A model generated the notes under the pieces. The model did no database searches. It saw only the letters and a program-made list of their open reading frames with translations, and was not told the DNA's origin. A stretch of DNA of 64,000 nucleotides, taken from NCBI GenBank assembly GCA_964386765.1, contig CAYLUC010000002.1, positions 2,202-66,201 on the forward strand, written 5' to 3'. The translations under genes and the position numbers were made by a program. The first letter of the stretch is position 1. Each line of letters opens with the position of its first letter. The DNA comes from an uncultured Candidatus Poseidoniales archaeon. Lineage in GTDB: Archaea > Thermoplasmatota > Poseidoniia > Poseidoniales > Thalassarchaeaceae. This document shows positions 44,934-60,374 of the stretch, in pieces.

Positions 44934-49633
<4,700 letters not shown>

Positions 49634-49785: not shown

Positions 49786-50589
49786 ATGGAACTGCCGCTC
49801 GTGTGTGTTGTCCTGAGCGGCTGTACTGTAGACGAGATGCTCAAAGACGCGGCAATGGCCACGGCTTCCGGTGCGGACTTGGTAGAGGTTCGACTGGATC
49901 GCCTCTGGGTCAGGCAAGTATTTCCCGAGCCGGAGGAGACTTCTGAGGAGACGAGGGGACGAAGAAATGAGAGGCAGGAGCCAGACTATGTTCCACAGCC
50001 ACTTGACTCAGTTGACTTGAATTCTGTCCTCGACTCATTCAAGCAGGGAGTCGAATTGCCTGTAATATTGACTTGCAGGCCGATGTCCCAAGGGGGGTAC
50101 TTCCCTGGTAATGAGGAAGAGAGATTGAATGTTCTAAGCGAGGGCATCAAGAGTAGGCCAAGCTGGGTTGATCTAGAAATCGACATTGCTGAGAAGTCAC
50201 GGAAGAAACTCATGAAATTGGCATCGGGTAAGACGAAGGTGATATGCTCTCACCATTCATCCGAGAATCCGCCTCCAACTAGTGAAATTGTGGCCGATGT
50301 CGAAGAGATGTCTACATTGGGTGACATGGTGAAGATTTGTTATCCAACTGGGGGGATAGAGGGCTCATTGAGATTATTCGAAGCCGCATGGGAGTTGAAG
50401 GGCTCCAAAGTTAGCAACTCAATAATGGGACTCGGCTCAGGAGGGGACTGGACAAGGATTCACGCACCCCTTCTCGGACAATACATGGTTTACTCAACCA
50501 TGGAAGTGGGATGGCATTTGGCGTACAAAGGGAAAATCAACAGGTCCGATCTTTCCACGGCCTGGGGACTCCTTGGCTATACTAACTAA
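49786..50589 (+). CDS. aroD: 3-dehydroquinate dehydratase, type I (AroD)
   Basis: LVEVRLD, ILTCRP..QGG, DLEI, ICSHH and MGLGSGG..R align with the E. coli AroD catalytic His and Lys regions. The start is set at MELPLV (49786). There is an acidic insertion of about 45 aa after the LVEVRLD motif. Confidence 0.8.
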   Translation: MELPLVCVVLSGCTVDEMLKDAAMATASGADLVEVRLDRLWVRQVFPEPEETSEETRGRRNERQEPDYVPQPLDSVDLNSVLDSFKQGVELPVILTCRPMSQGGYFPGNEEERLNVLSEGIKSRPSWVDLEIDIAEKSRKKLMKLASGKTKVICSHHSSENPPPTSEIVADVEEMSTLGDMVKICYPTGGIEGSLRLFEAAWELKGSKVSNSIMGLGSGGDWTRIHAPLLGQYMVYSTMEVGWHLAYKGKINRSDLSTAWGLLGYTN

Positions 50590-51520
50590 CTCCCGTATCT
50601 TTCCCCTCAGAATCGAGGTATGGGAGTTCACTTTCTTCATTTGAGACTTCGTCCTTTCCTTCTTGCATGTATTTGGAATGCAAGACGAATGGTACAATCA
50701 GGCATGCCAGGGGCATTGAGGCCACTAGAATGGTCGCAGTAAATTTCGGTATGTTCACCCGTTCTTCCACATCAATGAGGACCTCCACATCAATTGCGCC
50801 CCCTGCGGCCTTGTTGTCGGTGTGCCTCCCATTGTCCCATCCGTCAATTACTAGGAAGTACTCCATGCCTGCGTCTCCAAGTGATGATGACCAAACAGAA
50901 CCCATGGAGTCAATAGCTACTGAGAACTCCTCTTCGGAAACACGCTCATATGCGTGTGAATCGCGGAAAGGCAACCAGTCCACAGTGTCCCTCCATTCGA
51001 CTGGCAAGAAGTCATCTTCCCACAGGTTCTCCATTCTTAGCTCATATTCCCATCCGTAACGGTCCCAGTCCCCTCCTGTCATCAGGTACACGTCTCCCAC
51101 TGGCTCCAGAGGGGTATCGTCCAAGTTGGGGGTCATTTTGATGCAGAATGTGTATCTGTAACCTGGGACCAGTTGCATTTTCAGGGCTGCTGAACTGTCA
51201 TTTTCTATTGTGGTCTCCCAGTATACATCCAAATCGAGTGGCCGCAGGGAATCCTCTCCGTACCCCCAGTTCCAGTAAGTCTCTACGCCGTGTTCTTCGA
51301 CATACTTATCCACGTCAGGAGGATTTGTCGCCGAAACCTCGCATGAATTCGCAGCAACTGCCGAGGGTGATGATAGTATTACAATCATCAAAAGGACGGA
51401 TGGCGAGATGAAACTCAGATTGACGATAGATGCGATGGACTTGTTTGAAATCAGTGCCAATCTAACGCCTCCTTGTTCTGATGGGCCGTACGTACCCCGA
51501 CTCCCTTGTCCTGCGCTCAT
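50582..51520 (-). CDS. secreted or surface protein with a signal peptide and a C-terminal TM anchor plus acidic tail
   Basis: 312 aa. N-terminal hydrophobic signal (SVLLMIVILSSPSAVAANS), a Trp/Asp/Glu-rich ectodomain, a C-terminal TM (FTATILVASMPLACLIVPFVL) and a charged tail. The start is uncertain: the ORF start overlaps the end of the upstream gene by 59 bp, and the internal ATG at 51391 is an alternative. Confidence 0.55.
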   Translation of the reverse strand: MSAGQGSRGTYGPSEQGGVRLALISNKSIASIVNLSFISPSVLLMIVILSSPSAVAANSCEVSATNPPDVDKYVEEHGVETYWNWGYGEDSLRPLDLDVYWETTIENDSSAALKMQLVPGYRYTFCIKMTPNLDDTPLEPVGDVYLMTGGDWDRYGWEYELRMENLWEDDFLPVEWRDTVDWLPFRDSHAYERVSEEEFSVAIDSMGSVWSSSLGDAGMEYFLVIDGWDNGRHTDNKAAGGAIDVEVLIDVEERVNIPKFTATILVASMPLACLIVPFVLHSKYMQEGKDEVSNEESELPYLDSEGKDTGVS

Positions 51521-54500
51521 CCACTGTCAGATATTTCGGTTGTGGTGGTGGCTTGTGCTGATCCATTCCGGGGAGCCCCCCATCACTTTCGACCTCATCG
51601 ACCTCGTAAGTTTCCAGCATGTCCTCTGCATCCAACTCCTCCTCGTCCTTCTGGCGCATTATGACCCATCCCAGGACCATGACCAATGCAACTAATGTGA
51701 GAAGCCCTGCACTTTCCTTGTTCGGAACCAGGTCGGACCAAGTCAGGTCAGATAGGGAAAGAGGGGCTAAATCCTCTTCCTCCGTGAGGACAATTACGAC
51801 GAATTCCATCTCTGAGCAAACTTCAACGCCGTCACAAACCTGCATGAGTATTCGAACCTCGCCCATGCTGTTCCAAGACTGCGAACTCCAGCCCCAATCG
51901 TTTCTTGGGTCTCCATCACCATCGAAGTCCAGAGCGACATTTAGGTCCCATCTGACAACTAGGTCGCCCGTTAAATCACGGTCCATGTCATTGGTAGGGT
52001 CTCCATCTTCATCACTGTCTATTGAAGAATCAGAATCCAACCATGCGGAAATCCCCTCTTCTAAATCGGAATCGAACACCGAATAGTTGAGAATCACGGC
52101 ATCGCCGATATTAACATAGTCGGATCCAATGGGATTCATCTCCTCTATCACAGGTGCCCTGGAAACATGTACTAACATAGTGGTGGAATTAGTCTCTCCA
52201 CCTTCAAATCCATCTACGACTGTCAGAGTCACAACGTATGTCCCTGGGAGGTCATAGTCATGCCAAACTACAGCTCCCTCGACAATTGGCGTGGCATCAC
52301 CGAAGTCCCAAATCCAATGCGTAATGCCATTCCACTCTGGATCTTCTTGATCCGTAGAAGTCCTCCCCACGAAGAGTGGGTCGGAGTCGTAACTCCCAGA
52401 ACCGTCGAATCTAATTGGGGTCTCGGGGGCGACGAATGCGTCCCCATCGCCCGTCTGGGGAATCTGCCAGATTACTGCCTCACCATCCACTGGTTCCCTG
52501 TCAAGAAGACTCCCATTCACACTCGGACACGAGTATGTAAGTTCTGGAACTGGTGCCGGATTCTGTATCCTTAGGGAGTAGGACTTGGTCGCTGATGACA
52601 GTCCTCGTTCGTCTGTTACTGTCAGACTTACGGTGTAGAGGCCGGGGCTTAGGAATGTGTGACTAACAGAACTCGCATTCATTATTGGCGCATCTAAATC
52701 AGAGATATTCCAAGATGTGGATAGTAGGGAAGTGTCTCCGTCTGGATCAAATGAAAGGCTAGTGAATGTGTATGTTGTCTCCACAGTCCCATCAGAAGGC
52801 CTAGAGAAAACAGCTACCGGCCTTTGATTTAGGACGTTAACCACTATTGTTGTGAATGAGGAGTTTCCATCGTCATCAGTTACCTCCAGAGTCACAGTTT
52901 TCGCACCTGGTTCTCTCCAACCGACTACTGGATTACTGAGACTCGACTCAGTGGATGAGAAGTCTGATGTCAGTGACATGCCCCCTCCCTCTAGGTTAAC
53001 GCCGCCCTCAAATTGCCAGTTGTACTCTACAATCATGCCGTCGCTGTCTGTGAATACCTCGGGCATTTCCAGTGGAGTGAGGGTGAATGTCTCCAGAGGC
53101 TCATCGAAAATAAGCTTGGGAAGTCTGTTCAGAACTCTAATGAAAATCGAGTGCTCAACCTCATGAATTCCATCATTAACTGTGAGTGTCAGTGTGTAGA
53201 CGATCCCATCCGCACTACCATCTACCCATGAATGACTCGATTCCGCCAGCCCGACTCCTGAAACCCCTTCTCCATCCCCCCAGTCCCAGCTGAATTGCAA
53301 TTCATCAATGGGGAGGTTGTCCGTAGTTCCCCTGGCTGAGAATTCAACCTGTTGGTTTGTTAGGAGTACTAATTCGTCCGTGACTACCACACCGTCAACT
53401 GAAATCTCGGGAATCGGGTCAGATGTGTCTTGAACTACCACTTCCCAGGACTGGCTCTCTGAGAAGTAACCGCCCTGATCCATCACAGTCAGGACAATAG
53501 TGTACTCCCCCGGGTTGACGTATGGGTGTACAGGATTTTTCAGTCCTGAGGAAATGTTGTCTCCAAGGTCCCAGAAGTATCCGACTGGGGTTTCATTATG
53601 GGAGAAAGTGCCATTCAACTGTCCGAACCCCCATTCGTCATAACCTGAACCAAACATATTGACAGGTAGCCATGTCTGGGTTAGATTCGTCGAAATGGAT
53701 CCAGAGGCAACCGGCTCCATATTGGCCAACTCAACTGGAAGGGCGAAGGCTTGGTCGACCATCGCTCCAGTCACGTCGCTGATGCTAACTCCAAATGTCC
53801 AGTCTCCGGTGTGAGGTGGAGTGAACCAGACGGTTTTTTCAGTTGGAATACTGTTCCCCGCAGTCGCAGAGAAAACTAGGTTGTCGACTAGGGTGTTATT
53901 CACAAACGCGTCAACCGAAACTTCCAGGACTTCGAAGAACGCATTAGAAACTATGTCCAAATTCAACTCGACACTATCATCGACGCCATTGCCATCCCTG
54001 TCGAATGAGTCAATGGTATTTATCGAAACTTCGGCGGGATCGGTTATCAATCCAGCTTGTACCACTACGGATGCGGAGGGATAACTTCCAGTGGTGATGC
54101 CACAGGTCATGTAGTTGTAGTCACAGTCGTCTACCGCCGACTCGAACCAAGTAGTGAGCCAAACTTCGTCAGTAGTGTTCCCGAATCCATGAACTAGTCC
54201 CGTTGCTGCACCCGTTGCTGGATCTATCCTGAGCCTGCTCATCGACCAACTCCCCGTTGCAGAGTCACGGGAGAGGACCGCTCCTTCGAAGCCGAATTGT
54301 GTTGGTTGAACCATCAGGTTAAGAGGGGCTCCAGAACCCTGGTTGAACTTGTATGCCCTGATTCCCCAGCCCTCCACAGATTGGCTAGGGCTAGACCACG
54401 AGTTGACCCACTGGTCGTTGAATCCACTCATCTGAACCCTGCAGATAGAAGCAGCAATACACCCAGCAGTCAAGTCTAGATTGGAGAATCCAAAGGCGCC

Positions 54501-55565
54501 TTGTGCGCTATCAATCGAAACTGCCATGGAAAAGTTGGCGAATATGTCGCTCATGGTGGTCCCTATTGACGTGGACCCCGGCTCGGGGTTGCTGGCTAAG
54601 TTCTCGATTCCCGTTCCACCAGTTGCAGTGTCTGCAATCAGGGCCCTTATTGCGGCACCACCACCTAGTTTGTCAGCCAGGTACATCATGAACATGAATC
54701 CGGCTCCATAATCAGCAATTCTCTGGTTCCACCACCTTACACTCAAGTTCGAATTCTGCGACCATTCGTTAGCATGTCCTGTCAGTGTACTGGTAACGCC
54801 AAAGCAGAGGTAGGCAGCCATATCGGCGGCCCCCTCATCTATCCAGATGAATTCATACGGGTCCCTGGCGTTATGGAGGAGGTGTTGGAACTCGTGTGCT
54901 AGGATGGTGTTCCTCCAACTGAGGTCATCAACATCTACGAAAACCGCTTCCCTCGTTGATGCAAGTCCTGGAACGAAATAGCCGCCTACTGATGCAGCAC
55001 CGTCTATGGAGAGGAGAACAATCTCTATCTGGCAATTATTGTCTACATCGGGAGGCGTTCCGAAGTAGTTCGTATCGGTGGGGAAAATAGTTGACTCCCA
55101 TGTTGAGGTAATGTCGTTCAGGGTGGTCGACGGCACAATCTCACCATCCTCGACGAAAACTACAGAGTTCGTCGAAACTTTCTGTACGGTGGCGGAAATA
55201 GTTCCACTTGCTGTGGAGATGGTGTCAGTATCCCCCTGGCTCCATGCAGCTTCGCAATTTCTGACTGAGTGCCTGGAATTCTGGTATGACTGGGAGAATG
55301 GTAGCACTACTCCGGGGTATCCCTCCTCAACCCACTGCCTCTTCAGGAATCCCGTAGCTGAGAATATCGGTTCTTCGTCACCAGCAAACATGTATTGCTT
55401 GCCCTCAATAGGGGGGACGAAATCCGACAGATCACCCGTGATTTCAATGCTTACTGGGACCTCATCTGCAGGAATCGCGCCGACGACTGGAGAAAGGCTG
55501 GCTAGAAGCATCACTGAAACAATCATGACCGCCGAAGAGGATGAGTTGCTGTGTTTCCGGCCCAT
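51462..55565 (-). CDS. Large secreted zinc metalloprotease with at least five PKD repeats and a C-terminal TM anchor
   Basis: The start is at the signal-peptide Met (MGRKHSNSSSSAVMIVSVMLLASL, 55565). The zinc motif is ILAHEFQHLLHN...EGAAD. PKD-type repeats include FWDLGDNISSGLKNPVHPYVNPGEYTIVLTVMDQGG, FSWDWGDGEG...YTLTLTVNDG, WIWDFGDATP...GTYVVTLTVVDG and two others. C-terminal TM GLLTLVALVMVLGWVIM plus an acidic-then-basic tail ending RTRRR. Confidence 0.8.
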   Translation of the reverse strand: MGRKHSNSSSSAVMIVSVMLLASLSPVVGAIPADEVPVSIEITGDLSDFVPPIEGKQYMFAGDEEPIFSATGFLKRQWVEEGYPGVVLPFSQSYQNSRHSVRNCEAAWSQGDTDTISTASGTISATVQKVSTNSVVFVEDGEIVPSTTLNDITSTWESTIFPTDTNYFGTPPDVDNNCQIEIVLLSIDGAASVGGYFVPGLASTREAVFVDVDDLSWRNTILAHEFQHLLHNARDPYEFIWIDEGAADMAAYLCFGVTSTLTGHANEWSQNSNLSVRWWNQRIADYGAGFMFMMYLADKLGGGAAIRALIADTATGGTGIENLASNPEPGSTSIGTTMSDIFANFSMAVSIDSAQGAFGFSNLDLTAGCIAASICRVQMSGFNDQWVNSWSSPSQSVEGWGIRAYKFNQGSGAPLNLMVQPTQFGFEGAVLSRDSATGSWSMSRLRIDPATGAATGLVHGFGNTTDEVWLTTWFESAVDDCDYNYMTCGITTGSYPSASVVVQAGLITDPAEVSINTIDSFDRDGNGVDDSVELNLDIVSNAFFEVLEVSVDAFVNNTLVDNLVFSATAGNSIPTEKTVWFTPPHTGDWTFGVSISDVTGAMVDQAFALPVELANMEPVASGSISTNLTQTWLPVNMFGSGYDEWGFGQLNGTFSHNETPVGYFWDLGDNISSGLKNPVHPYVNPGEYTIVLTVMDQGGYFSESQSWEVVVQDTSDPIPEISVDGVVVTDELVLLTNQQVEFSARGTTDNLPIDELQFSWDWGDGEGVSGVGLAESSHSWVDGSADGIVYTLTLTVNDGIHEVEHSIFIRVLNRLPKLIFDEPLETFTLTPLEMPEVFTDSDGMIVEYNWQFEGGVNLEGGGMSLTSDFSSTESSLSNPVVGWREPGAKTVTLEVTDDDGNSSFTTIVVNVLNQRPVAVFSRPSDGTVETTYTFTSLSFDPDGDTSLLSTSWNISDLDAPIMNASSVSHTFLSPGLYTVSLTVTDERGLSSATKSYSLRIQNPAPVPELTYSCPSVNGSLLDREPVDGEAVIWQIPQTGDGDAFVAPETPIRFDGSGSYDSDPLFVGRTSTDQEDPEWNGITHWIWDFGDATPIVEGAVVWHDYDLPGTYVVTLTVVDGFEGGETNSTTMLVHVSRAPVIEEMNPIGSDYVNIGDAVILNYSVFDSDLEEGISAWLDSDSSIDSDEDGDPTNDMDRDLTGDLVVRWDLNVALDFDGDGDPRNDWGWSSQSWNSMGEVRILMQVCDGVEVCSEMEFVVIVLTEEEDLAPLSLSDLTWSDLVPNKESAGLLTLVALVMVLGWVIMRQKDEEELDAEDMLETYEVDEVESDGGLPGMDQHKPPPQPKYLTVDERRTRESGYVRPIRTRRR

Positions 55566-55644
55566 ATCGCTCAACACTCCGTGTTGTATCCAGTATCTAT
55601 CGGTCCTAAGACGTATTTTAACATCGATGGAGCATCGTTCGTAC

Positions 55645-56664
55645 ATGAGTCACGCGGGCCGACCTCGCATCCGCCCCCTCATGCTCGTAATTGTGCTCAT
55701 CTTGTCTTTATCCAGCTCATCATTTGGATCTGCAGCAGAGGATGAAGAATTTGAGTTAGAAGTTGTTGTTATTGATGAAATACCACATGACCCGGGAGCT
55801 TTCACACAGGGGCTTGAGATGTATGAAGGAAGGATGTTCGAGAGTACGGGCTTGTTCGGAGAATCAACTCTGAGGGAAGTGGACCCATTTTCGGGAGATG
55901 TCTTGAGGTTTGCAAGTTTAGAAGCGTCTCTTTTCGGAGAAGGGATAGCTGTGGTGGGAGACAAAATTTTCATGCTCACATGGCAAAATAATACGGCCCT
56001 AGTTTTTGATAAAGAGACGTTCAGCATCATTCGTAATTTGTCATATGAGGGGGAAGGATGGGGCCTCTGTTTTGACGGGTCAAGTTTGGTCATGTCCAAT
56101 GGGTCCTCTTCACTTTCCTTCAGGGATCCCGAAACATTCGAAATTTCCCGCACAGTTACCATCACTGATAACCATGGAAATCAGGTGGAAATGATAAACG
56201 AGCTAGAGTGCGTAACAACGCCATCCGGGCAGAGTATTTTCGCGAATGTTTGGCAGGAAGACAGAATCCTGATGATAGATCCAATTTCAGGCAATGTGTT
56301 GAGGGAGTATGATGCGTCATTCCTTTCTTCAGAGAATGGGGTTGAACACAACAATGTCTTGAATGGAATCGCCCATAGGGGGTCCTCAGAATTCTGGATT
56401 ACTGGTAAGAACTGGACTTCGATGTACTTGGTGGATTTGCCCATGTCTATTGAGATGGATGAAAACTCCTGCCATTCGTCCTGCTTGATTGAAAGAGAAA
56501 TTTTGGAAAATTGGCCACTTCTACTATTTGCATTGGCGGGAATTACAATTTTCAAGTTCGCTACCTCGAAGGATGGTGAGGAGGAAGGGTCCAATAATCG
56601 GCATGATGAACAGCCTAGCACCACACCGACTATGCAACGAAGGGGGGTGGACGACAATGAGTGA
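55645..56664 (+). CDS. Glutaminyl-peptide cyclotransferase (plant/bacterial-type glutamine cyclase, beta-propeller) with signal peptide and C-terminal TM anchor
   Basis: HDPGAFTQGLEMYEGRMFESTGLFGESTLREVDPFSGDVL...LFGEGIAVVGDKIFMLTWQNNTALVFDKETF matches the Glu_cyclase_2 family. N-terminal signal MSHAGRPRIRPLMLVIVLILSL. C-terminal TM WPLLLFALAGITIFKF plus an acidic tail. The N-terminal part of the 55078 ORF-track model is antisense to the protease gene and is excluded. Confidence 0.8.
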   Translation: MSHAGRPRIRPLMLVIVLILSLSSSSFGSAAEDEEFELEVVVIDEIPHDPGAFTQGLEMYEGRMFESTGLFGESTLREVDPFSGDVLRFASLEASLFGEGIAVVGDKIFMLTWQNNTALVFDKETFSIIRNLSYEGEGWGLCFDGSSLVMSNGSSSLSFRDPETFEISRTVTITDNHGNQVEMINELECVTTPSGQSIFANVWQEDRILMIDPISGNVLREYDASFLSSENGVEHNNVLNGIAHRGSSEFWITGKNWTSMYLVDLPMSIEMDENSCHSSCLIEREILENWPLLLFALAGITIFKFATSKDGEEEGSNNRHDEQPSTTPTMQRRGVDDNE

Positions 56665-57412
56665 CGAATATGAGGAAGAAATCGATAGAAGATCCGGTAT
56701 GGAATTATGGCTTTCCGATCTTTCAACCGACTCGGCCACTCGGAATCTTGGCGCCTTTCTTATTGCATTAGGGAGCCTCCTTGGTGTAATCGTCGGAATT
56801 ATGCTAATTTCTGGTAATGTAAGCGATATTCTATCGGGTGAGATAGACGACTCTGGGGCACAAGCAGATGTGAATGGCATAGTTATTGCCGCTTTAGTGG
56901 ATAATACTACGGGTGCAGATCCAGTAGATGGTGTCAACGTGATCATTTATGACGATCTGGGAATAGAAATTGGAAGTGATTTGACCGACTCTGGTGGGAG
57001 GTTTTCTATCACCGATTTGCCTCGCAGATCTTCCATGCTGGAAGTCGCGCACCCGGGAAATGTAACAATTCACATATTGCTGATTCCAGGGGACTACTCG
57101 CAAATTTCAGTTACACTTACCCAGGGGGATGGGATTGAAACTTCTGATATTAGGGGTGATAGCCATTTGGGGGAGTCAGTCCTAATAGGGACCATAGTAG
57201 CCCTCTTGACTCTATTTTCCGGATTGGCTGGATTGGCCGGGTCCGTCGAGGCGAGAAAGGGACTCAGTTACAGGAGAACATGGTGGCTTTCCTTCATTGG
57301 ACTATGGAGCAGGGGGCTGATGTTTATCGGTCCACTATTCATATTGTCTGGAATGGGTCTCGCCAGTCTTTCCAAAAGTCAGTTCTACGACGTTTATTCG
57401 AAGGAAGAGTGA
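56657..57412 (+). CDS. membrane protein with a carboxypeptidase-regulatory-like beta-sandwich domain flanked by TM helices
   Basis: 8-bp overlap with the cyclase gene stop. TM1 LGAFLIALGSLLGVIVGIMLI, the domain segment GIVIAALVDNTTGADPVDGVNVIIYDDLGIEIGSDLTDSGGRFSITDL, and two more C-terminal TM segments. Confidence 0.55.
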   Translation: MSDEYEEEIDRRSGMELWLSDLSTDSATRNLGAFLIALGSLLGVIVGIMLISGNVSDILSGEIDDSGAQADVNGIVIAALVDNTTGADPVDGVNVIIYDDLGIEIGSDLTDSGGRFSITDLPRRSSMLEVAHPGNVTIHILLIPGDYSQISVTLTQGDGIETSDIRGDSHLGESVLIGTIVALLTLFSGLAGLAGSVEARKGLSYRRTWWLSFIGLWSRGLMFIGPLFILSGMGLASLSKSQFYDVYSKEE

Positions 57413-57418
57413 TTCCGC

Positions 57419-58759
57419 ATGTATCTGATCACTATAGAGGGTGGTGATGGCAGCGGAAAGGGTCTTGCAACCCGTGTTGTTTCCGATGTAATGGGGAAGG
57501 AATTCCCCTTTGTTTCAGTTGAGGTGACTGGGGAGCCAAGAAGGGAGCACCCACTTGGGAGACTCGCAATCGATGCGGTCAGAGAGAAGAAAATGTCCCC
57601 TGACGAGGAGGCCGGGTTATTCGCTGCAGACAGGGTGGACCATTCACATGGCTGGATACTGCCCCGTCTCGAGCAAGGCAAGGCAGTTGTTAGCGAGAGA
57701 AACATCCACTCTTCACTCGTCTACCAGGGGCTCGTTGGGGGGGCCGGGGTGGATCGAGTTGCCCACATGAACTCAGCCGCCCTTATTCCGGATCTATGCA
57801 TCTGGGTGGATTGTGATCCAGATGTGGCGTTAAAACGCATAAAGAGTGGAACTCTGAGGGCGCACTCCAACAAAGAAGAATACTTCGAGACCACCGAATT
57901 ACAAAGAAAAATCAGAGATGGATACAGAAAACTTCTCTCAGGAGAAATAGAAATGCCCGTGCCATTTGACATGGGGGGGATTATTGGCCCCATCCTTAAT
58001 GAGGGAACTGAGGACGAATTCAAGAGTCAACTCAAGGCAGCAATAAGGAGGTTCCTTCATTCTCGACCACTTCCCGTAAACGTAGATGTTGAGATAGTCG
58101 ATAGGAACCTATTGAGGGCCCTGATTAGGAGTTCCAGGGGGCAGTCCACACTCGAGGGGCTCGGAGTTGAACCAACGAGCTCGGGGAAAAATTGGTTGGC
58201 TGGGAAAGCCCCTTGGAGAATGATCAATGAGTGCCAGAAGGAGCACAAGTCAGTAATAGAGTCTGTTGCAGAGGGAGAAAGGGTATACGTTCCTAACCAC
58301 GTTCTTTCACATTCAATTTCATCAGTTCTTGGCACGCTATCGCTAATGGGATCCGCCGACGTCAGAGAGCTGCGCCGCTCCTTGGGCCCAGTTAGGACAG
58401 TTTCTGAGAGGCACACGCAGACGATTGTCAAGTATCTACATGAGGGTCTGGGCTGGATTCATCAGCACCGTTCCCTGATTGGTAGGGAGGCCCCTAGGTC
58501 CCAATTGAGGGACGAATTTAGGCCGATGGGAGTGCTTTCGATAGCGATTTGGCCACTAAGGGACGAATTAATCAGGTGGAAGAGGGAAAACCCAACAACC
58601 CATATGCGCTTTTTCATGGGTCAGATTATCAAGTCAGGGAGGTGCCCAGATGCGGTAAATTCGGTTGTAGAAAGGCTAAAGATTCTGGGGAGTGGAAGTG
58701 ATTCATGCGAGGTCCCAGATAACCCGGGAGAACTAGTAAAGTGGTGGATGAATGCCTAG
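57419..58759 (+). CDS. Thymidylate kinase-like N-terminal domain fused to an unknown C-terminal domain of about 240 aa
   Basis: N-terminal ITIEGGDGSGKG (Tmk P-loop EG.DG.GK(S/T), but Gly follows the Lys) and LFAADRVDH (the Tmk DR(Y/H) motif). Residues from about 205 to 446 (NLLRALIRSS...ERLKILGSGSD) have no recognisable family. Confidence 0.7.
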   Translation: MYLITIEGGDGSGKGLATRVVSDVMGKEFPFVSVEVTGEPRREHPLGRLAIDAVREKKMSPDEEAGLFAADRVDHSHGWILPRLEQGKAVVSERNIHSSLVYQGLVGGAGVDRVAHMNSAALIPDLCIWVDCDPDVALKRIKSGTLRAHSNKEEYFETTELQRKIRDGYRKLLSGEIEMPVPFDMGGIIGPILNEGTEDEFKSQLKAAIRRFLHSRPLPVNVDVEIVDRNLLRALIRSSRGQSTLEGLGVEPTSSGKNWLAGKAPWRMINECQKEHKSVIESVAEGERVYVPNHVLSHSISSVLGTLSLMGSADVRELRRSLGPVRTVSERHTQTIVKYLHEGLGWIHQHRSLIGREAPRSQLRDEFRPMGVLSIAIWPLRDELIRWKRENPTTHMRFFMGQIIKSGRCPDAVNSVVERLKILGSGSDSCEVPDNPGELVKWWMNA

Positions 58760-59594: not shown

Positions 59595-60374
59595 ATGGCA
59601 GAGGCCAGTATTCGCGATGTCATCTCCATCTCCATAGTTGCGGGATTGATGGTTTCAACGATGGTAACTTTCATTGCAATTTTTGCTAGTGGATTGGATG
59701 ATCCAGACGTCATTTCATCATTAAGGGCCGGTTTTGTAATTGGTTCCTCGGCCGGCGTAATGATAGCAATTTTTGGATTCTATAGGGTGAATGAGATGGC
59801 GAGCACCGCCAAGGATAGGGAAGTTGAGAGGGCGGAGGAATTGCATAGGCTGAGGGCAATACTATCTCCGATCGAAGAAAGGGCCCCACAAGAAATGGGG
59901 GGATGGTCGGTTTCTGAAAAAATTAGAAGGGACCGTGGATTATTAGTCGTAGATCTCCATGGATTGGATGCCCCATCTGCCGCTGCCGTGGCCGAGAGGC
60001 TAATTGAAAGGCGTCAGGACTTGAAGAGAGTCAAGGTAATTACAGGAAAATCTGACCAGAACTCAAACAACTCTTCCGATCCCGGGGTCAGGCCGGCTGT
60101 GTTGCAGAGATTAAGAATAGATGCGGAAAGGGTCAATTGGCAAGTAATTCAGAAATCTAGCTCAGTAACACTGAGGCCAATGGGAGTCGCACCAACGCCG
60201 CGAATTTGGGCCACCAGATTCGCAATTTTTGTTATCCCGATGACTACAGTAATGACCCTTGCATTCAGGGATTTGGCAGGTAGTGGACTTGAGTCCCAAG
60301 GAATGGCATTCGGAGCTGCCTCAGGGATATTGGTCACGTCACTGGTTTCGTCGTACAGGGACAGATCCGGCTAG
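59595..60374 (+). CDS. Smr-domain protein with flanking transmembrane segments
   Basis: The central segment LLVVDLHGLDAPSAAAVAERLIERRQDLKRVKVITGKS matches the Smr signature (DLHG...G......V..GKG). N-terminal TMs (ISIVAGLMVSTMVTFIAIFA; VIGSSAGVMIAIFGF) and C-terminal TMs. Confidence 0.6.
   Translation: MAEASIRDVISISIVAGLMVSTMVTFIAIFASGLDDPDVISSLRAGFVIGSSAGVMIAIFGFYRVNEMASTAKDREVERAEELHRLRAILSPIEERAPQEMGGWSVSEKIRRDRGLLVVDLHGLDAPSAAAVAERLIERRQDLKRVKVITGKSDQNSNNSSDPGVRPAVLQRLRIDAERVNWQVIQKSSSVTLRPMGVAPTPRIWATRFAIFVIPMTTVMTLAFRDLAGSGLESQGMAFGAASGILVTSLVSSYRDRSG

What the first reader, a model, noticed from the sequence alone, without database searches (positions are those of the whole stretch)
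50582..57412. Cluster of four surface proteins sharing a signal peptide plus C-terminal TM and charged-tail anchor
Four adjacent genes encode proteins with cleavable-looking N-terminal signals and a single C-terminal TM helix followed by a short acidic or basic cytoplasmic tail. The genes are 50582..51520, 51462..55565, 55645..56664 and 56657..57412. None has a PGF-CTERM or LPXTG motif. The first two overlap, and the last two overlap by 8 bp, which suggests co-expression. The arrangement is an M-protease with PKD repeats, a divergently transcribed glutaminyl cyclase, and a CarboxypepD_reg-like membrane protein. It may be a coordinated extracellular protein-processing or nutrient-acquisition module typical of surface-active marine archaea.
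Basis: partly seen in the sequence, partly recalled or inferred. Interest (0 to 1): 0.55.

Follow-up and report, generated by a model that had tools for sequence, protein, structure and literature searches.

The report
Archaeal surface protease and cyclase locus
Two back-to-back operons, present in every Marine Group II archaeon examined, encode a membrane-tethered zinc protease and a membrane-tethered glutaminyl cyclase with their partner proteins; related lineages carry an unrelated enzyme of the same predicted activity in the cyclase's exact position, which suggests that capping exported proteins with pyroglutamate matters to these abundant ocean archaea.

Summary
The gene cluster is real, but the description needs correcting. 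Three of the four proteins (g1, g2, g3) have a signal peptide, an ectodomain, one C-terminal TM helix and an acidic tail. The fourth (g4) is a multi-pass membrane protein. The reported g1/g2 overlap comes from a miscalled start. g2 is a 1367-aa distant M30 (lugdulysin-like) zinc protease with a PKD array and a 64-aa cytoplasmic tail that is as conserved as its catalytic core. g1 is a translationally coupled partner with a GOLD/PPC-like beta-sandwich. g3 is a type I glutaminyl cyclase (QC) with all four active-site residues invariant and a C-terminal anchor found only in the archaeal versions. g4 carries a transthyretin-like ectodomain and always overlaps or abuts the QC gene. The order gyrAB-aroD-g1-g2<>QC-g4-tmk holds in 20 Poseidoniales loci and in five loci from deeper lineages. 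The QC slot alternates between the unrelated type I (propeller) and type II (M28-like) enzymes, with at least two switches. A near-invariant ~37-nt promoter element lies between the operons. My best reading is a core surface-protein processing locus, with the QC acting like the Bacteroidetes Q-rule enzyme. In this genome the QC's neighbours do not start with Gln, and a link between protease and QC is inferred, not shown.

The parts
50582..51460 (-). g1: a 292-aa type I membrane protein. It has a signal peptide, a GOLD/PPC-like beta-sandwich ectodomain with a helical insert, a TM helix with conserved P/C/P/H residues, and a 31-aa acidic tail carrying a conserved P[YF]L motif. It is translationally coupled to g2.
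51462..55565 (-). g2: a 1367-aa membrane-tethered zinc metalloprotease. It consists of a signal peptide, an M30-like catalytic domain, a conserved middle region, a PKD array, an acidic Asp-rich region, a TM helix and a conserved cytoplasmic tail.
   Evidence: Length is 1367-1375 aa in MGII orthologues with 56-94% identity.
54480..55289 (-). g2 catalytic domain (aa 93-362). The HEFQH motif is at 54882..54896 (aa 224-228), with E244 as the likely third zinc ligand and Y286.
   Evidence: Profile search against PDB hits lugdulysin 7bb8 at E 1.7e-12; the single sequence gives 1.3e-07. Among 18 orthologues: H224 17/18, E225 18/18, H228 18/18, E244 18/18, Y286 14/18 with His in the other 4.
52161..53603 (-). 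g2 PKD-domain array (approximately aa 655-1135).
   Evidence: PF18911 E 3.3e-47 with 5 stretches, and PF00801 E 3.4e-28. A further PKD domain in the C-terminal fragment.
51465..51713 (-). g2 TM helix (aa 1285-1303) and 64-aa cytoplasmic tail. The tail consensus is TY[DE]V.EV...GGLPGMDQH.PPPQPKYLT..ER....SGY[VI]RPIRTRR[RK]. The last AGG AGG codons double as the Shine-Dalgarno sequence for g1.
   Evidence: The tail is among the most conserved segments of the protein (0.83-0.89, against 0.86 for the catalytic core). It is recognisable in all deeper lineages. It is found only at the extreme C-terminus of g2-family proteins among 1.84 billion representatives. Embedded Shine-Dalgarno.
55611..55647 (.). 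Near-invariant element in the 79-bp divergent intergenic region: ACGTATTTTAACATCGATGGAGCATCGTTCGTACATG. It contains a TATA-like TATTTTAA at 55614..55621. I infer that this is a shared bidirectional promoter/operator, giving a leaderless g3 mRNA and a g2 leader of about 26 nt that carries a GGAGTG Shine-Dalgarno.
   Evidence: one copy per locus in 24 archaeal loci (L003/L004 have a 2-mismatch variant), including the type II QC loci L087-L089, while the flanking DNA has diverged. Synonymous sites are conserved. There is a single copy in the window where 0 are expected by chance. No Rfam family reaches its threshold; the one sub-threshold match is elsewhere. The predicted transcription start sites are inferred from spacing only.
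55645..56664 (+). g3: a 339-aa type I (five-bladed propeller) glutaminyl cyclase. It has a signal peptide, a propeller at aa 40-267 (55762..56445), a C-terminal TM at aa 292-308 (56518..56568) and an acidic tail. An alternative start lies at 55627 (MEHRSYM...).
   Evidence: PF05096 E 3.5e-82. PDB 3nol 2.4e-43, 3mbr, 2faw. Papaya QC residues Q24/E69/N155/K225 correspond to Q55/E99/N185/K255 here and are invariant in 20/20 orthologues (residue roles from PMC5837995). A C-terminal TM is present in 20/20 archaeal proteins and absent in 62/63 of the closest bacterial homologues.
56657..57412 (+). g4: a 251-aa multi-pass membrane protein. It has an acidic cytoplasmic N-terminus, TM1, an extracellular transthyretin-like/CarboxypepD_reg beta-sandwich, TM2 and two short helices. 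It overlaps g3 by 8 bp.
57419..58759 (+). tmk: a 446-aa thymidylate kinase with an unexplained C-terminal extension of about 270 aa. It starts 6 nt after g4 and is probably co-transcribed with g3-g4.
   Evidence: PF02223 covers aa 6-174 only. The extension has no Pfam or PDB match. The g4-tmk gap is 2-25 nt in every locus measured.

Best explanation
The locus is a core cell-surface protein-processing unit of Marine Group II archaea (Poseidoniales) and their deeper relatives. It is built from two divergent operons that share one promoter region.

Operon 1 (g2-g1) produces a zinc endopeptidase of the lugdulysin/hyicolysin (M30) type. A PKD stalk holds it away from the membrane, one TM helix anchors it, and a strongly conserved cytoplasmic tail probably contacts a partner inside the cell. 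It is made together with a small single-pass partner (g1) whose ectodomain is a GOLD/PPC-like beta-sandwich.

Operon 2 (QC-g4-tmk) produces a glutaminyl cyclase tethered to the outer face of the membrane by a C-terminal TM helix, together with a multi-pass membrane protein that carries a transthyretin-like ectodomain. The cyclase most likely converts N-terminal Gln (and more slowly Glu) of freshly exported proteins into pyroglutamate. That would shield the cell's own surface proteins from aminopeptidases, as the membrane-anchored QC does in the Bacteroidetes Q-rule pathway.

Shown: the identities of the genes, their predicted topology, active-site conservation, translational coupling, synteny, the in-place alternation of QC types, and the conserved promoter element.

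Inferred: enzymatic activity, the substrates, co-regulation of the two operons, any physical complex, and any functional hand-off between protease and cyclase.
For: 1. Identity of the parts. g3 is a type I QC (Pfam E 3.5e-82; PDB 2.4e-43), and its four catalytic residues are invariant in 20 orthologues. The g2 catalytic domain matches lugdulysin (E 1.7e-12), and HExxH plus E244 are conserved.

2. In-place exchange of analogous enzymes. In L087, L088, L089 and L117 the QC slot holds an M28-fold protein. Its best solved relatives are the Bacteroidetes type II QCs PgQC and TfQC (E 1e-22 to 3e-28, against 2e-08 to 2e-09 for true aminopeptidases). It carries the bacteroidal Glu-Asp zinc-ligand signature (PMC7948796). 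MGII and L116 hold the unrelated propeller type. Neighbour-joining trees of g2 and tmk place the types as ((I, II), (I, II)), which requires at least two switches.

3. The two unrelated QC types have the same predicted topology: a signal peptide, a C-terminal TM and a tail. The closest bacterial type I QCs lack this anchor in 62 of 63 cases.

4. QC and g4 overlap or abut in all but one locus (L117 has a 68-nt gap). g1 starts -4 to +46 nt from the g2 stop (at most 14 nt within MGII), and in the MGIIa loci an AGGAGG sits inside the last g2 codons.

5. The ~37-nt intergenic element is near-invariant across MGIIa, MGIIb and L087-L089, although the downstream QC gene differs in type.

6. In the g1 family, 45 of 93 cluster representatives have Gln and about 15 more have Glu at a site compatible with the -3/-1 cleavage rule, just before the invariant Cys. 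Overall Gln content in the family is 1.7%. By the crude predictor, Gln also follows the signal peptide in 4 of 20 QC orthologues and Glu in 5 of 19 g2 orthologues.

7. Precedent. In Bacteroidetes, QCs of both types are membrane-anchored and clade-specific, and pyroglutamate stabilises exported proteins (PMC5837995, PMC10653852).
Against: - In this genome the three neighbouring exported proteins begin with Ala, Ile and Ala after the predicted cleavage, so they cannot be QC substrates here.
- No proteome-wide test of Gln at position +1 was possible.
- The entire block from gyrA to sufD is syntenic, so adjacency of the protease and QC operons could simply be inherited gene order.
- tmk, a housekeeping gene, sits in the QC operon. 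Operon membership here therefore does not guarantee a shared function.
- Type II QCs cannot be told apart from aminopeptidases by active-site residues alone (PMC5837995).
- The cleavage sites come from a crude -3/-1 rule, not from SignalP.
- The promoter and start-site assignments rest on spacing only.
- The cluster representatives counted are related to one another, not independent.
Confidence: 0.5

Rival explanations
1. The two operons have unrelated jobs and the gene order is simply frozen. On this view g2-g1 is the universal surface endopeptidase that MGII use to break down high-molecular-weight protein for food. The QC-g4-tmk operon only happens to lie next to it in a highly syntenic, compact genome.
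For: - MGII are described as degraders of extracellular protein (PMC6336850).
- M30 enzymes are secreted neutral proteases (my own background knowledge).
- Housekeeping neighbours (gyrAB, aroD, tmk, DUF2085, sufBD) are just as syntenic as the four genes.
- No Gln follows the signal peptides of g1, g2 or g3 in this genome.
Against: - No peptide transporter or other catabolic gene lies nearby.
- The divergent promoter region is far more conserved than its flanks and is kept across a change of QC type.
- The core tmk-g4-QC<>g2-g1-aroD-gyrB arrangement persists in L116 and L117, where the outer flanks differ.
- A 64-aa cytoplasmic tail as conserved as the catalytic core is unexpected for a purely digestive enzyme.
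Confidence: 0.3
2. g2 is mainly a structural or adhesive surface protein, such as a stalk or an envelope or S-layer-associated component. Its tail would tie the surface to a cytoplasmic scaffold, and the protease domain would serve self-processing or envelope remodelling. g1 and g4 would be envelope partners.
For: - Length is almost fixed (1367-1375 aa) and identity is 56-94% across the order, which is unusual for a secreted hydrolase.
- It has a PKD array, Asp-rich Ca-binding-like stretches and a conserved cytoplasmic tail.
Against: - The zinc site is fully conserved, so catalysis is under selection.
- There is no evidence of abundance or lattice-forming domains.
- The SlaB hit reflects a generic beta-sandwich.
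Confidence: 0.1
3. The M28-fold proteins in L087, L088, L089 and L117 are aminopeptidases, not cyclases. The slot would then hold 'some exopeptidase-like enzyme', and the cluster would be an endo- plus exo-peptidase degradation cascade in those lineages. There would be no isofunctional replacement.
For: - The type II QC and M28 aminopeptidase superfamily shares its active-site residues, so residues alone cannot assign activity (PMC5837995).
- NCBIfam gives only weak aminopeptidase-type hits.
Against: - The best solved relatives, over the full length, are characterised bacteroidal QCs, 14-19 orders of magnitude better in E-value than real aminopeptidases.
- The proteins have the bacteroidal QC Glu-Asp signature (PMC7948796).
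- They occupy exactly the position, promoter, topology and g4 coupling of a bona fide type I QC. Isofunctional displacement explains this most simply.
Confidence: 0.1

Closest known systems
Bacteroidetes Q-rule pathway (signal peptidase I plus the membrane-anchored QC, e.g. PgQC 6qql and TfQC 6qro)
   Same: The QC faces outward and is tethered to the cytoplasmic membrane. Either the plant-type or the animal-type QC is used, depending on the clade. The archaeal type II proteins share the bacteroidal Glu-Asp zinc-ligand signature. Gln is frequent at +1 in at least one exported family, g1 (PMC5837995, PMC7948796, PMC10653852).
   Different: This is an archaeal, single-membrane cell. The anchor is a C-terminal TM helix with an acidic tail, not an N-terminal lipid. 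The QC is translationally coupled to a multi-pass transthyretin-like protein and to tmk. A proteome-wide Q-rule has not been demonstrated, and in this genome the neighbours lack Gln at +1.
Bacterial and plant type I glutaminyl cyclases (Zymomonas 3nol, Xanthomonas 3mbr, papaya 2faw)
   Same: Same five-bladed propeller domain, about 45% identity, and all four proposed catalytic residues conserved.
   Different: The archaeal proteins add a C-terminal TM helix and an 18-40 aa tail, absent from 62 of the 63 closest bacterial homologues. L116 also has an extra domain of about 170 aa. The physiological role of type I QCs is itself largely unknown (PMC7948796).
Lugdulysin/hyicolysin, staphylococcal neutral metalloproteases (PDB 7bb8). 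The MEROPS M30 assignment is from my own background knowledge.
   Same: The catalytic domain aligns over about 270 residues, with HExxH, the downstream Glu and the Tyr.
   Different: Similarity is distant, and no Pfam peptidase model reports a match. The archaeal protein is 1367 aa, with a conserved middle region, a PKD array, a TM anchor, a conserved cytoplasmic tail and an obligatory co-translated partner.
p24/TMED GOLD-domain cargo receptors, and the collagen-binding and pre-peptidase C-terminal (PPC) domains of secreted proteases (compared with g1)
   Different: Identity is only 9-12% and no sequence-level homology is detectable. g1 has a helical insert and is an archaeal protein encoded beside a protease. 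The fold is common, so homology is not established.
Carboxypeptidase regulatory-like / transthyretin-like domains (carboxypeptidase D 5aq0, SusC N-terminal extension 9hfj) (compared with g4)
   Different: Here the domain is inserted between TM1 and TM2 of a small four-helix membrane protein. None of the PDB matches found combines this domain with such a membrane core.

Membership tests
Type I (plant/bacterial) glutaminyl cyclase, Pfam PF05096 | Match to the family model above the curated cutoff | tested here: met
   276 bits against a cutoff of 22.3, E 3.5e-82, covering model positions 5-248 of 249.
Type I (plant/bacterial) glutaminyl cyclase, Pfam PF05096 | Proposed catalytic residues of papaya QC (Q24, E69, N155, K225) | tested here: met
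   The alignment to 2faw maps them to Q55, E99, N185 and K255. All four are invariant in 20/20 archaeal orthologues. Residue roles are taken from PMC5837995.
Type I (plant/bacterial) glutaminyl cyclase, Pfam PF05096 | Cyclase activity on N-terminal Gln | not testable with these tools
   Needs a recombinant enzyme assay.
Type II (animal/bacteroidal) glutaminyl cyclase (proteins in L087, L088, L089, L117; not in the window) | M28-type alpha/beta fold, with closest relatives among characterised QCs | tested here: met
   PF04389 E 1.8e-24 and 6e-22. Best PDB hits are 6qro, 6qql, 7cje and 4fuu at 1e-22 to 3e-28, against aminopeptidase 2ek8 at 2e-08 to 2e-09.
Type II (animal/bacteroidal) glutaminyl cyclase (proteins in L087, L088, L089, L117; not in the window) | Bacteroidal signature: the zinc ligand Glu202 (human numbering) replaced by Asp, giving a Glu-Asp pair | tested here: met
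   VEDHG in L087 and L088, AEDQD in L117. The signature is described in PMC7948796.
Type II (animal/bacteroidal) glutaminyl cyclase (proteins in L087, L088, L089, L117; not in the window) | Discrimination from M28 aminopeptidase activity | tested here: inconclusive
   Active-site residues are shared across the superfamily (PMC5837995). The argument rests on the ranking of relatives and on the protein occupying a QC slot.
Lugdulysin/hyicolysin-type metalloprotease (MEROPS M30) | HExxH with a downstream Glu ligand and a catalytic Tyr, plus alignable similarity to a family member | tested here: met
   HEFQH at 224-228, E244 and Y286. Profile search against 7bb8 gives E 1.7e-12 over about 270 residues.
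Lugdulysin/hyicolysin-type metalloprotease (MEROPS M30) | Recognition by a curated family model | tested here: not met
   No peptidase family is reported by Pfam, even at E up to 10. NCBIfam gives only a weak flagellinolysin HExxH hit, 20.8 bits against a cutoff of 205. g2 is best described as a distant, new subfamily.
Bacteroidetes-type Q-rule system | Outward-facing QC anchored to the cytoplasmic membrane | tested here: met
   A signal peptide plus a C-terminal TM are predicted in 20/20 type I and all four type II archaeal QCs. This is prediction only.
Bacteroidetes-type Q-rule system | Gln immediately after the signal-peptide cleavage site in most exported proteins | tested here: inconclusive
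   In the window, +1 is Ala (g1), Ile (g2) and Ala (g3). In the g1 family 45/93 have Gln and about 15 have Glu. Gln occurs in 4/20 QC orthologues. A proteome-wide count was not possible with the sequences available.
Sortase/archaeosortase-type C-terminal sorting signals (LPXTG, PGF-CTERM) | Signature motif, then a TM, then a very short basic tail at the extreme C-terminus | tested here: not met
   No PGF or LPXTG motif is present. The tails are 31, 64 and 36 aa long and net acidic. The g2 tail is a family-specific conserved domain.
GOLD domain / p24 (TMED) family (g1) | GOLD beta-sandwich fold in a type I membrane protein | tested here: met
GOLD domain / p24 (TMED) family (g1) | Detectable sequence homology to the family | tested here: not met
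   No Pfam hit. Identity in the structural alignments is 9-12%. Collagen-binding, PPC and other beta-sandwich domains score nearly as well.
CarboxypepD_reg-like domain, PF13620 (g4) | Family model match, or the transthyretin-like fold | tested here: met

The most novel reading that the evidence does not exclude
Marine Group II archaea and their relatives may run an archaeal counterpart of the Q-rule. On this reading a large share of their exported proteins start with Gln or Glu and are pyroglutamylated by a membrane-anchored QC-g4 complex. That complex would be indispensable: it has been replaced by an analogue at least twice but was missing from none of the 25 loci examined. It would be co-regulated, and perhaps physically associated, with the universal tethered M30 protease, its GOLD-like partner and an unknown cytoplasmic binder of the protease tail. 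The whole would form a transmembrane machine for surface-protein maturation.
Probability: 0.2. Interest if true: 0.8.

Novelty: new variant of a known kind. Interest (0 to 1): 0.6.

Why it matters
Marine Group II archaea are among the most abundant heterotrophs in the surface ocean and have never been cultured, so their cell-surface biology is known only from genomes.

- **A missed core protease.** This locus is a core feature present in every MGII locus examined. Its protease carries no match to any Pfam peptidase model, so a published peptidase survey that relied on Pfam models (PMC6336850) would presumably miss it.
- **QCs in archaea.** The papers I found describe glutaminyl cyclases in plants, fungi, bacteria and animals. 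They describe systematic pyroglutamate capping of exported proteins as exclusive to Bacteroidetes (PMC10653852), and I found no report of an archaeal QC.
- **A selective argument.** Two unrelated QC folds alternate at one fixed chromosomal slot, each with the same added membrane anchor and the same partner gene. That is a clean natural experiment indicating that the activity itself is under selection.
- **Testable predictions.** The finding predicts a measurable frequency of Gln at +1 in MGII genomes and pyroglutamyl N-termini in ocean metaproteomes.
- **New leads.** The conserved cytoplasmic tail of the protease and the near-invariant promoter element are further handles on regulation in an uncultured lineage.

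Tried and rejected
- **Pfam and NCBIfam on g1.** No meaningful family was found; a 'PsbM' hit is just the TM helix.
- **Is the g2 tail a shared sorting signal?** I asked whether other surface proteins carry it. A word-indexed search returned only fragments of g2 orthologues. An exhaustive HMMER search of 1.84 billion representatives found it only at the C-terminus of g2-family proteins. The idea is rejected.
- **A PGF-CTERM or LPXTG-like signal.** Rejected.
- **Rfam on the intergenic region.** Nothing above noise.
- **An RNA hairpin in the conserved element.** The CGATG/CATCG stem is not conserved in L087-L089 (read from the sequences), so I rejected it in favour of a DNA-level promoter/operator.
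- **Bacterial-type promoter and terminator scan.** Results were at background level and the scan is not applicable to archaea.
- **NCBIfam on the M28 proteins.** Uninformative.
- **AFDB50 fold search.** The library was unavailable.
- **Literature searches.** MGII plus glutaminyl cyclase: none. Archaea plus glutaminyl cyclase: nothing relevant except pyroglutamate on bacteriorhodopsin. Lugdulysin/M30: none. One badly chosen search was wasted.
- **The Poseidoniales-specific 'peptidase M6' family of PMC9258230.** I could not link it to g2.
- **Organism names from cluster look-ups.** None were given.
- **Metagenome scan with the type II QC.** It found one further archaeal locus (L089); the remaining hits, at about 30% identity, carry none of the other cluster genes.

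Full report
**1. What is in the sequence**

The region holds four genes in two divergent pairs.

On the minus strand, g2 (51462..55565, 1367 aa) is followed by g1.
- The sequence shows a TTG at 51460, one nucleotide after the g2 stop, with AAGGAGG 7 nt upstream inside the last g2 codons.
- The resulting 292-aa protein is exactly the form present in public collections (P0001, 100% identity).

On the plus strand, g3 (55645..56664) overlaps g4 (56657..57412) by 8 bp, as reported. tmk follows 6 nt later.

**2. Topology**

I used Kyte-Doolittle hydropathy scans and ortholog alignments.
- g1, g2 and g3 each have an N-terminal signal-like segment, one C-terminal TM helix and a tail of 31, 64 or 36 aa. 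All three tails are net acidic.
- g4 is different. It has a 32-aa acidic cytoplasmic N-terminus, a conserved glycine-rich TM1, an ectodomain, TM2 and two short helices. An AlphaFold model with pLDDT 81.7 agrees.
- None of the four carries a PGF-CTERM or LPXTG-type signal.
- Among the 53 ORFs in the window, g1 and g2 (and g3) are the only proteins with the signal-peptide plus C-terminal-TM layout.
- An unrelated protein of about 1061-1115 aa beside gyrA in L087/L088 has the same layout. It therefore looks like the usual anchoring style in these archaea, not a hallmark of this cluster.

**3. The parts**

*g3 (glutaminyl cyclase)*
- It is a type I, five-bladed-propeller QC: PF05096 E 3.5e-82 and PDB 3nol 2.4e-43.
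- Alignment to papaya QC maps the proposed catalytic residues Q24, E69, N155 and K225 (PMC5837995) to Q55, E99, N185 and K255. All four are invariant in 20 archaeal orthologues.

*g2 (protease)*
- The N-terminal domain is a distant relative of lugdulysin (7bb8): E 1.3e-07 with the single sequence and 1.7e-12 with an ortholog profile.
- HExxH and E244 are conserved.
- No curated peptidase model recognises it.
- It continues with a conserved middle region, a PKD array (PF18911 E 3.3e-47), Asp-rich stretches, the TM helix and the tail.

*g1*
- No family is detectable by sequence.

*g4*

**4. Conservation**

Named homologues and locus titles point to Candidatus Poseidoniales, that is Marine Group II.

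The order gyrA-gyrB-aroD-g1-g2<>g3-g4-tmk-DUF2085-(smr)-sufD is present in all 20 Poseidoniales loci examined. These include loci titled Thalassarchaeaceae as well as the window's own clade. Because the housekeeping flanks are just as syntenic, this alone says little about function.

Three further observations are more specific:
- **g2 is unusually constrained.** Length is 1367-1375 aa and identity 56-94%. The cytoplasmic tail is among the most conserved segments (0.83-0.89 against 0.86 for the catalytic core). Among 1.84 billion representative proteins, the tail occurs only at the extreme C-terminus of g2-family proteins.
- **Translational coupling is conserved.** g1 begins -4 to +14 nt from the g2 stop in MGII. 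AGG AGG codons are kept in the last g2 codons of the MGIIa loci while the other Arg codons vary. The QC gene and g4 overlap or abut in all but one locus.
- **The intergenic region holds a near-invariant element.** The 79-bp divergent region contains a ~37-nt element (55611..55647) with a TATA-like box. It is present once per locus in 24 archaeal loci, while the surrounding DNA has diverged. Synonymous positions are conserved. Spacing suggests a single bidirectional TATA box giving a leaderless g3 mRNA and a short Shine-Dalgarno-bearing g2 leader. That is an inference.

**5. The key result**

The key result comes from more distant members of the g1 and g2 families. Five loci keep the core tmk-g4-[slot]<>g2-g1-aroD-gyrB even where the outer flanks differ: L087, L088, L089, L116 and L117, with g2 identity of 38-53% to the window protein.

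In L087, L088, L089 and L117 the slot is filled by an M28-fold protein, not a propeller QC.
- Its best solved relatives, over the full length, are the characterised Bacteroidetes type II glutaminyl cyclases PgQC and TfQC (E 1e-22 to 3e-28). True aminopeptidases score 2e-08 to 2e-09.
- It has the Glu-Asp zinc-ligand pair that distinguishes bacteroidal QCs (PMC7948796).
- It carries a signal peptide and a C-terminal TM helix with a tail. In L087 and L088 it overlaps g4 by 4 bp.
- In L087-L089 it starts at the same conserved ATG of the promoter element.

L116 has a type I QC.

Neighbour-joining trees of g2 and tmk give ((MGII: type I; L087/L088: type II), (L116: type I; L117: type II)). At least two switches of QC type therefore occurred at one fixed position.

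The two type II enzymes are 39% identical. The MGII and L116 type I enzymes are only 37% identical, which is less than MGII shares with bacterial QCs (43-51%). This hints at independent acquisitions of type I.

The C-terminal anchor is an archaeal addition: 62 of the 63 closest bacterial type I QCs end right after the propeller.

**6. Interpretation**

Repeated replacement by an unrelated enzyme of the same predicted activity, with the same anchor, partner gene and promoter, is strong comparative evidence that cyclase activity at the outer membrane face is selected for at this locus.

The closest known system is the Bacteroidetes Q-rule. There, a membrane-anchored QC of either type, depending on clade, converts the Gln exposed by signal peptidase I into pyroglutamate, which stabilises exported proteins (PMC5837995, PMC10653852).

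- In this genome g1, g2 and g3 begin with Ala, Ile and Ala after the predicted cleavage.
- In the g1 family, 45 of 93 cluster representatives have Gln and about 15 have Glu at a cleavage-compatible site just before the invariant Cys. Gln content in the family is 1.7%.
- By the crude predictor, Gln follows the signal peptide in 4 of 20 QC orthologues, and Glu in 5 of 19 g2 orthologues.

These counts use a crude -3/-1 rule and related sequences.

**7. What remains uncertain**

- Whether the protease operon and the QC operon work together is inferred only from the shared conserved promoter and from the persistence of the core in lineages with different flanks.
- tmk sits in the QC operon, which shows that operon membership here need not mean a shared function.
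- g2 could be primarily a nutritional endopeptidase. MGII are known protein degraders (PMC6336850).
- g2 could instead be a structural surface protein.
- The function of its tail is unknown.
- The GOLD-like fold of g1 does not establish homology.

**8. Verdict**

The cluster is real and is a core feature of the Poseidoniales loci examined.

The interesting content is different from what was flagged:
- QCs in archaea, where I found none reported;
- an in-place alternation between the two unrelated QC classes;
- a protease with a conserved cytoplasmic tail;
- a near-invariant divergent promoter element.

I class it as a new variant of a known kind (a Q-rule-like, membrane-anchored QC system), with interest 0.6.

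Noticed in passing
window 57419..58759 (tmk): The thymidylate kinase is 446 aa, but the kinase domain covers only aa 6-174. The C-terminal extension of about 270 aa is present in every relative examined (445-455 aa proteins). It has no Pfam or PDB match. The gene follows g4 by 2-25 nt in every locus.
   Followed up: partly
window 44934..49630 (gyrA, gyrB), compared with L001 and L003: Gyrase identities do not track the other genes. The window's GyrB/GyrA are 83-88% identical to those of L005, L014, L018 and L023, but only 65-69% (GyrB) and 61-74% (GyrA) to L001 and L003. Yet L001 is closer than L005 in g2 and tmk. This suggests that the gyrase genes were replaced or recombined in some lineages.
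   Followed up: no
window 59595..60374: A 259-aa membrane protein with a weak Smr-domain hit lies between DUF2085 and sufD. It is present in the window's clade and in L087/L088, but tblastn finds no match in L003, L005, L018, L019 and L021-L023.
   Followed up: no
L087:16956-20141 and L088:16644-19991 (minus strand): A protein of about 1061-1115 aa with no Pfam domain lies beside gyrA. It has a signal peptide, one C-terminal TM and a charged tail. This shows that the anchor architecture is used by other surface proteins in these lineages.
   Followed up: partly
L116:8100-9521 (minus strand): The type I QC of this deep lineage is 473 aa. It has an extra region of about 170 aa, of unknown nature, between the propeller and the C-terminal TM.
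   Followed up: no
L003, at the conserved element upstream of its QC gene: In L003 the usual QC start ATG reads ATT. Translation there must begin at the upstream ATG of the conserved element (MEHCSYI...). The short MEHRSYM extension may therefore be translated in some lineages, and the true start in the window (55627 or 55645) is not settled.
   Followed up: partly
P0159 (84 aa, on a 622-bp metagenome contig): This is a short ORF with an N-terminal hydrophobic segment joined directly to the g2-type cytoplasmic tail. It is probably a truncated or chimeric assembly, but it could be a stand-alone tail protein.
   Followed up: no
L024-L086 (bacterial loci found with the g3 query): Outside Poseidoniales, the closest relatives of the archaeal type I QC are bacterial (Pseudonocardiaceae and other actinomycetes, Myxococcota, Trueperaceae, Thermoanaerobaculia) at 42-51% identity. 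That is as close as QCs from different MGII lineages are to one another, and is consistent with acquisition from bacteria.
   Followed up: partly
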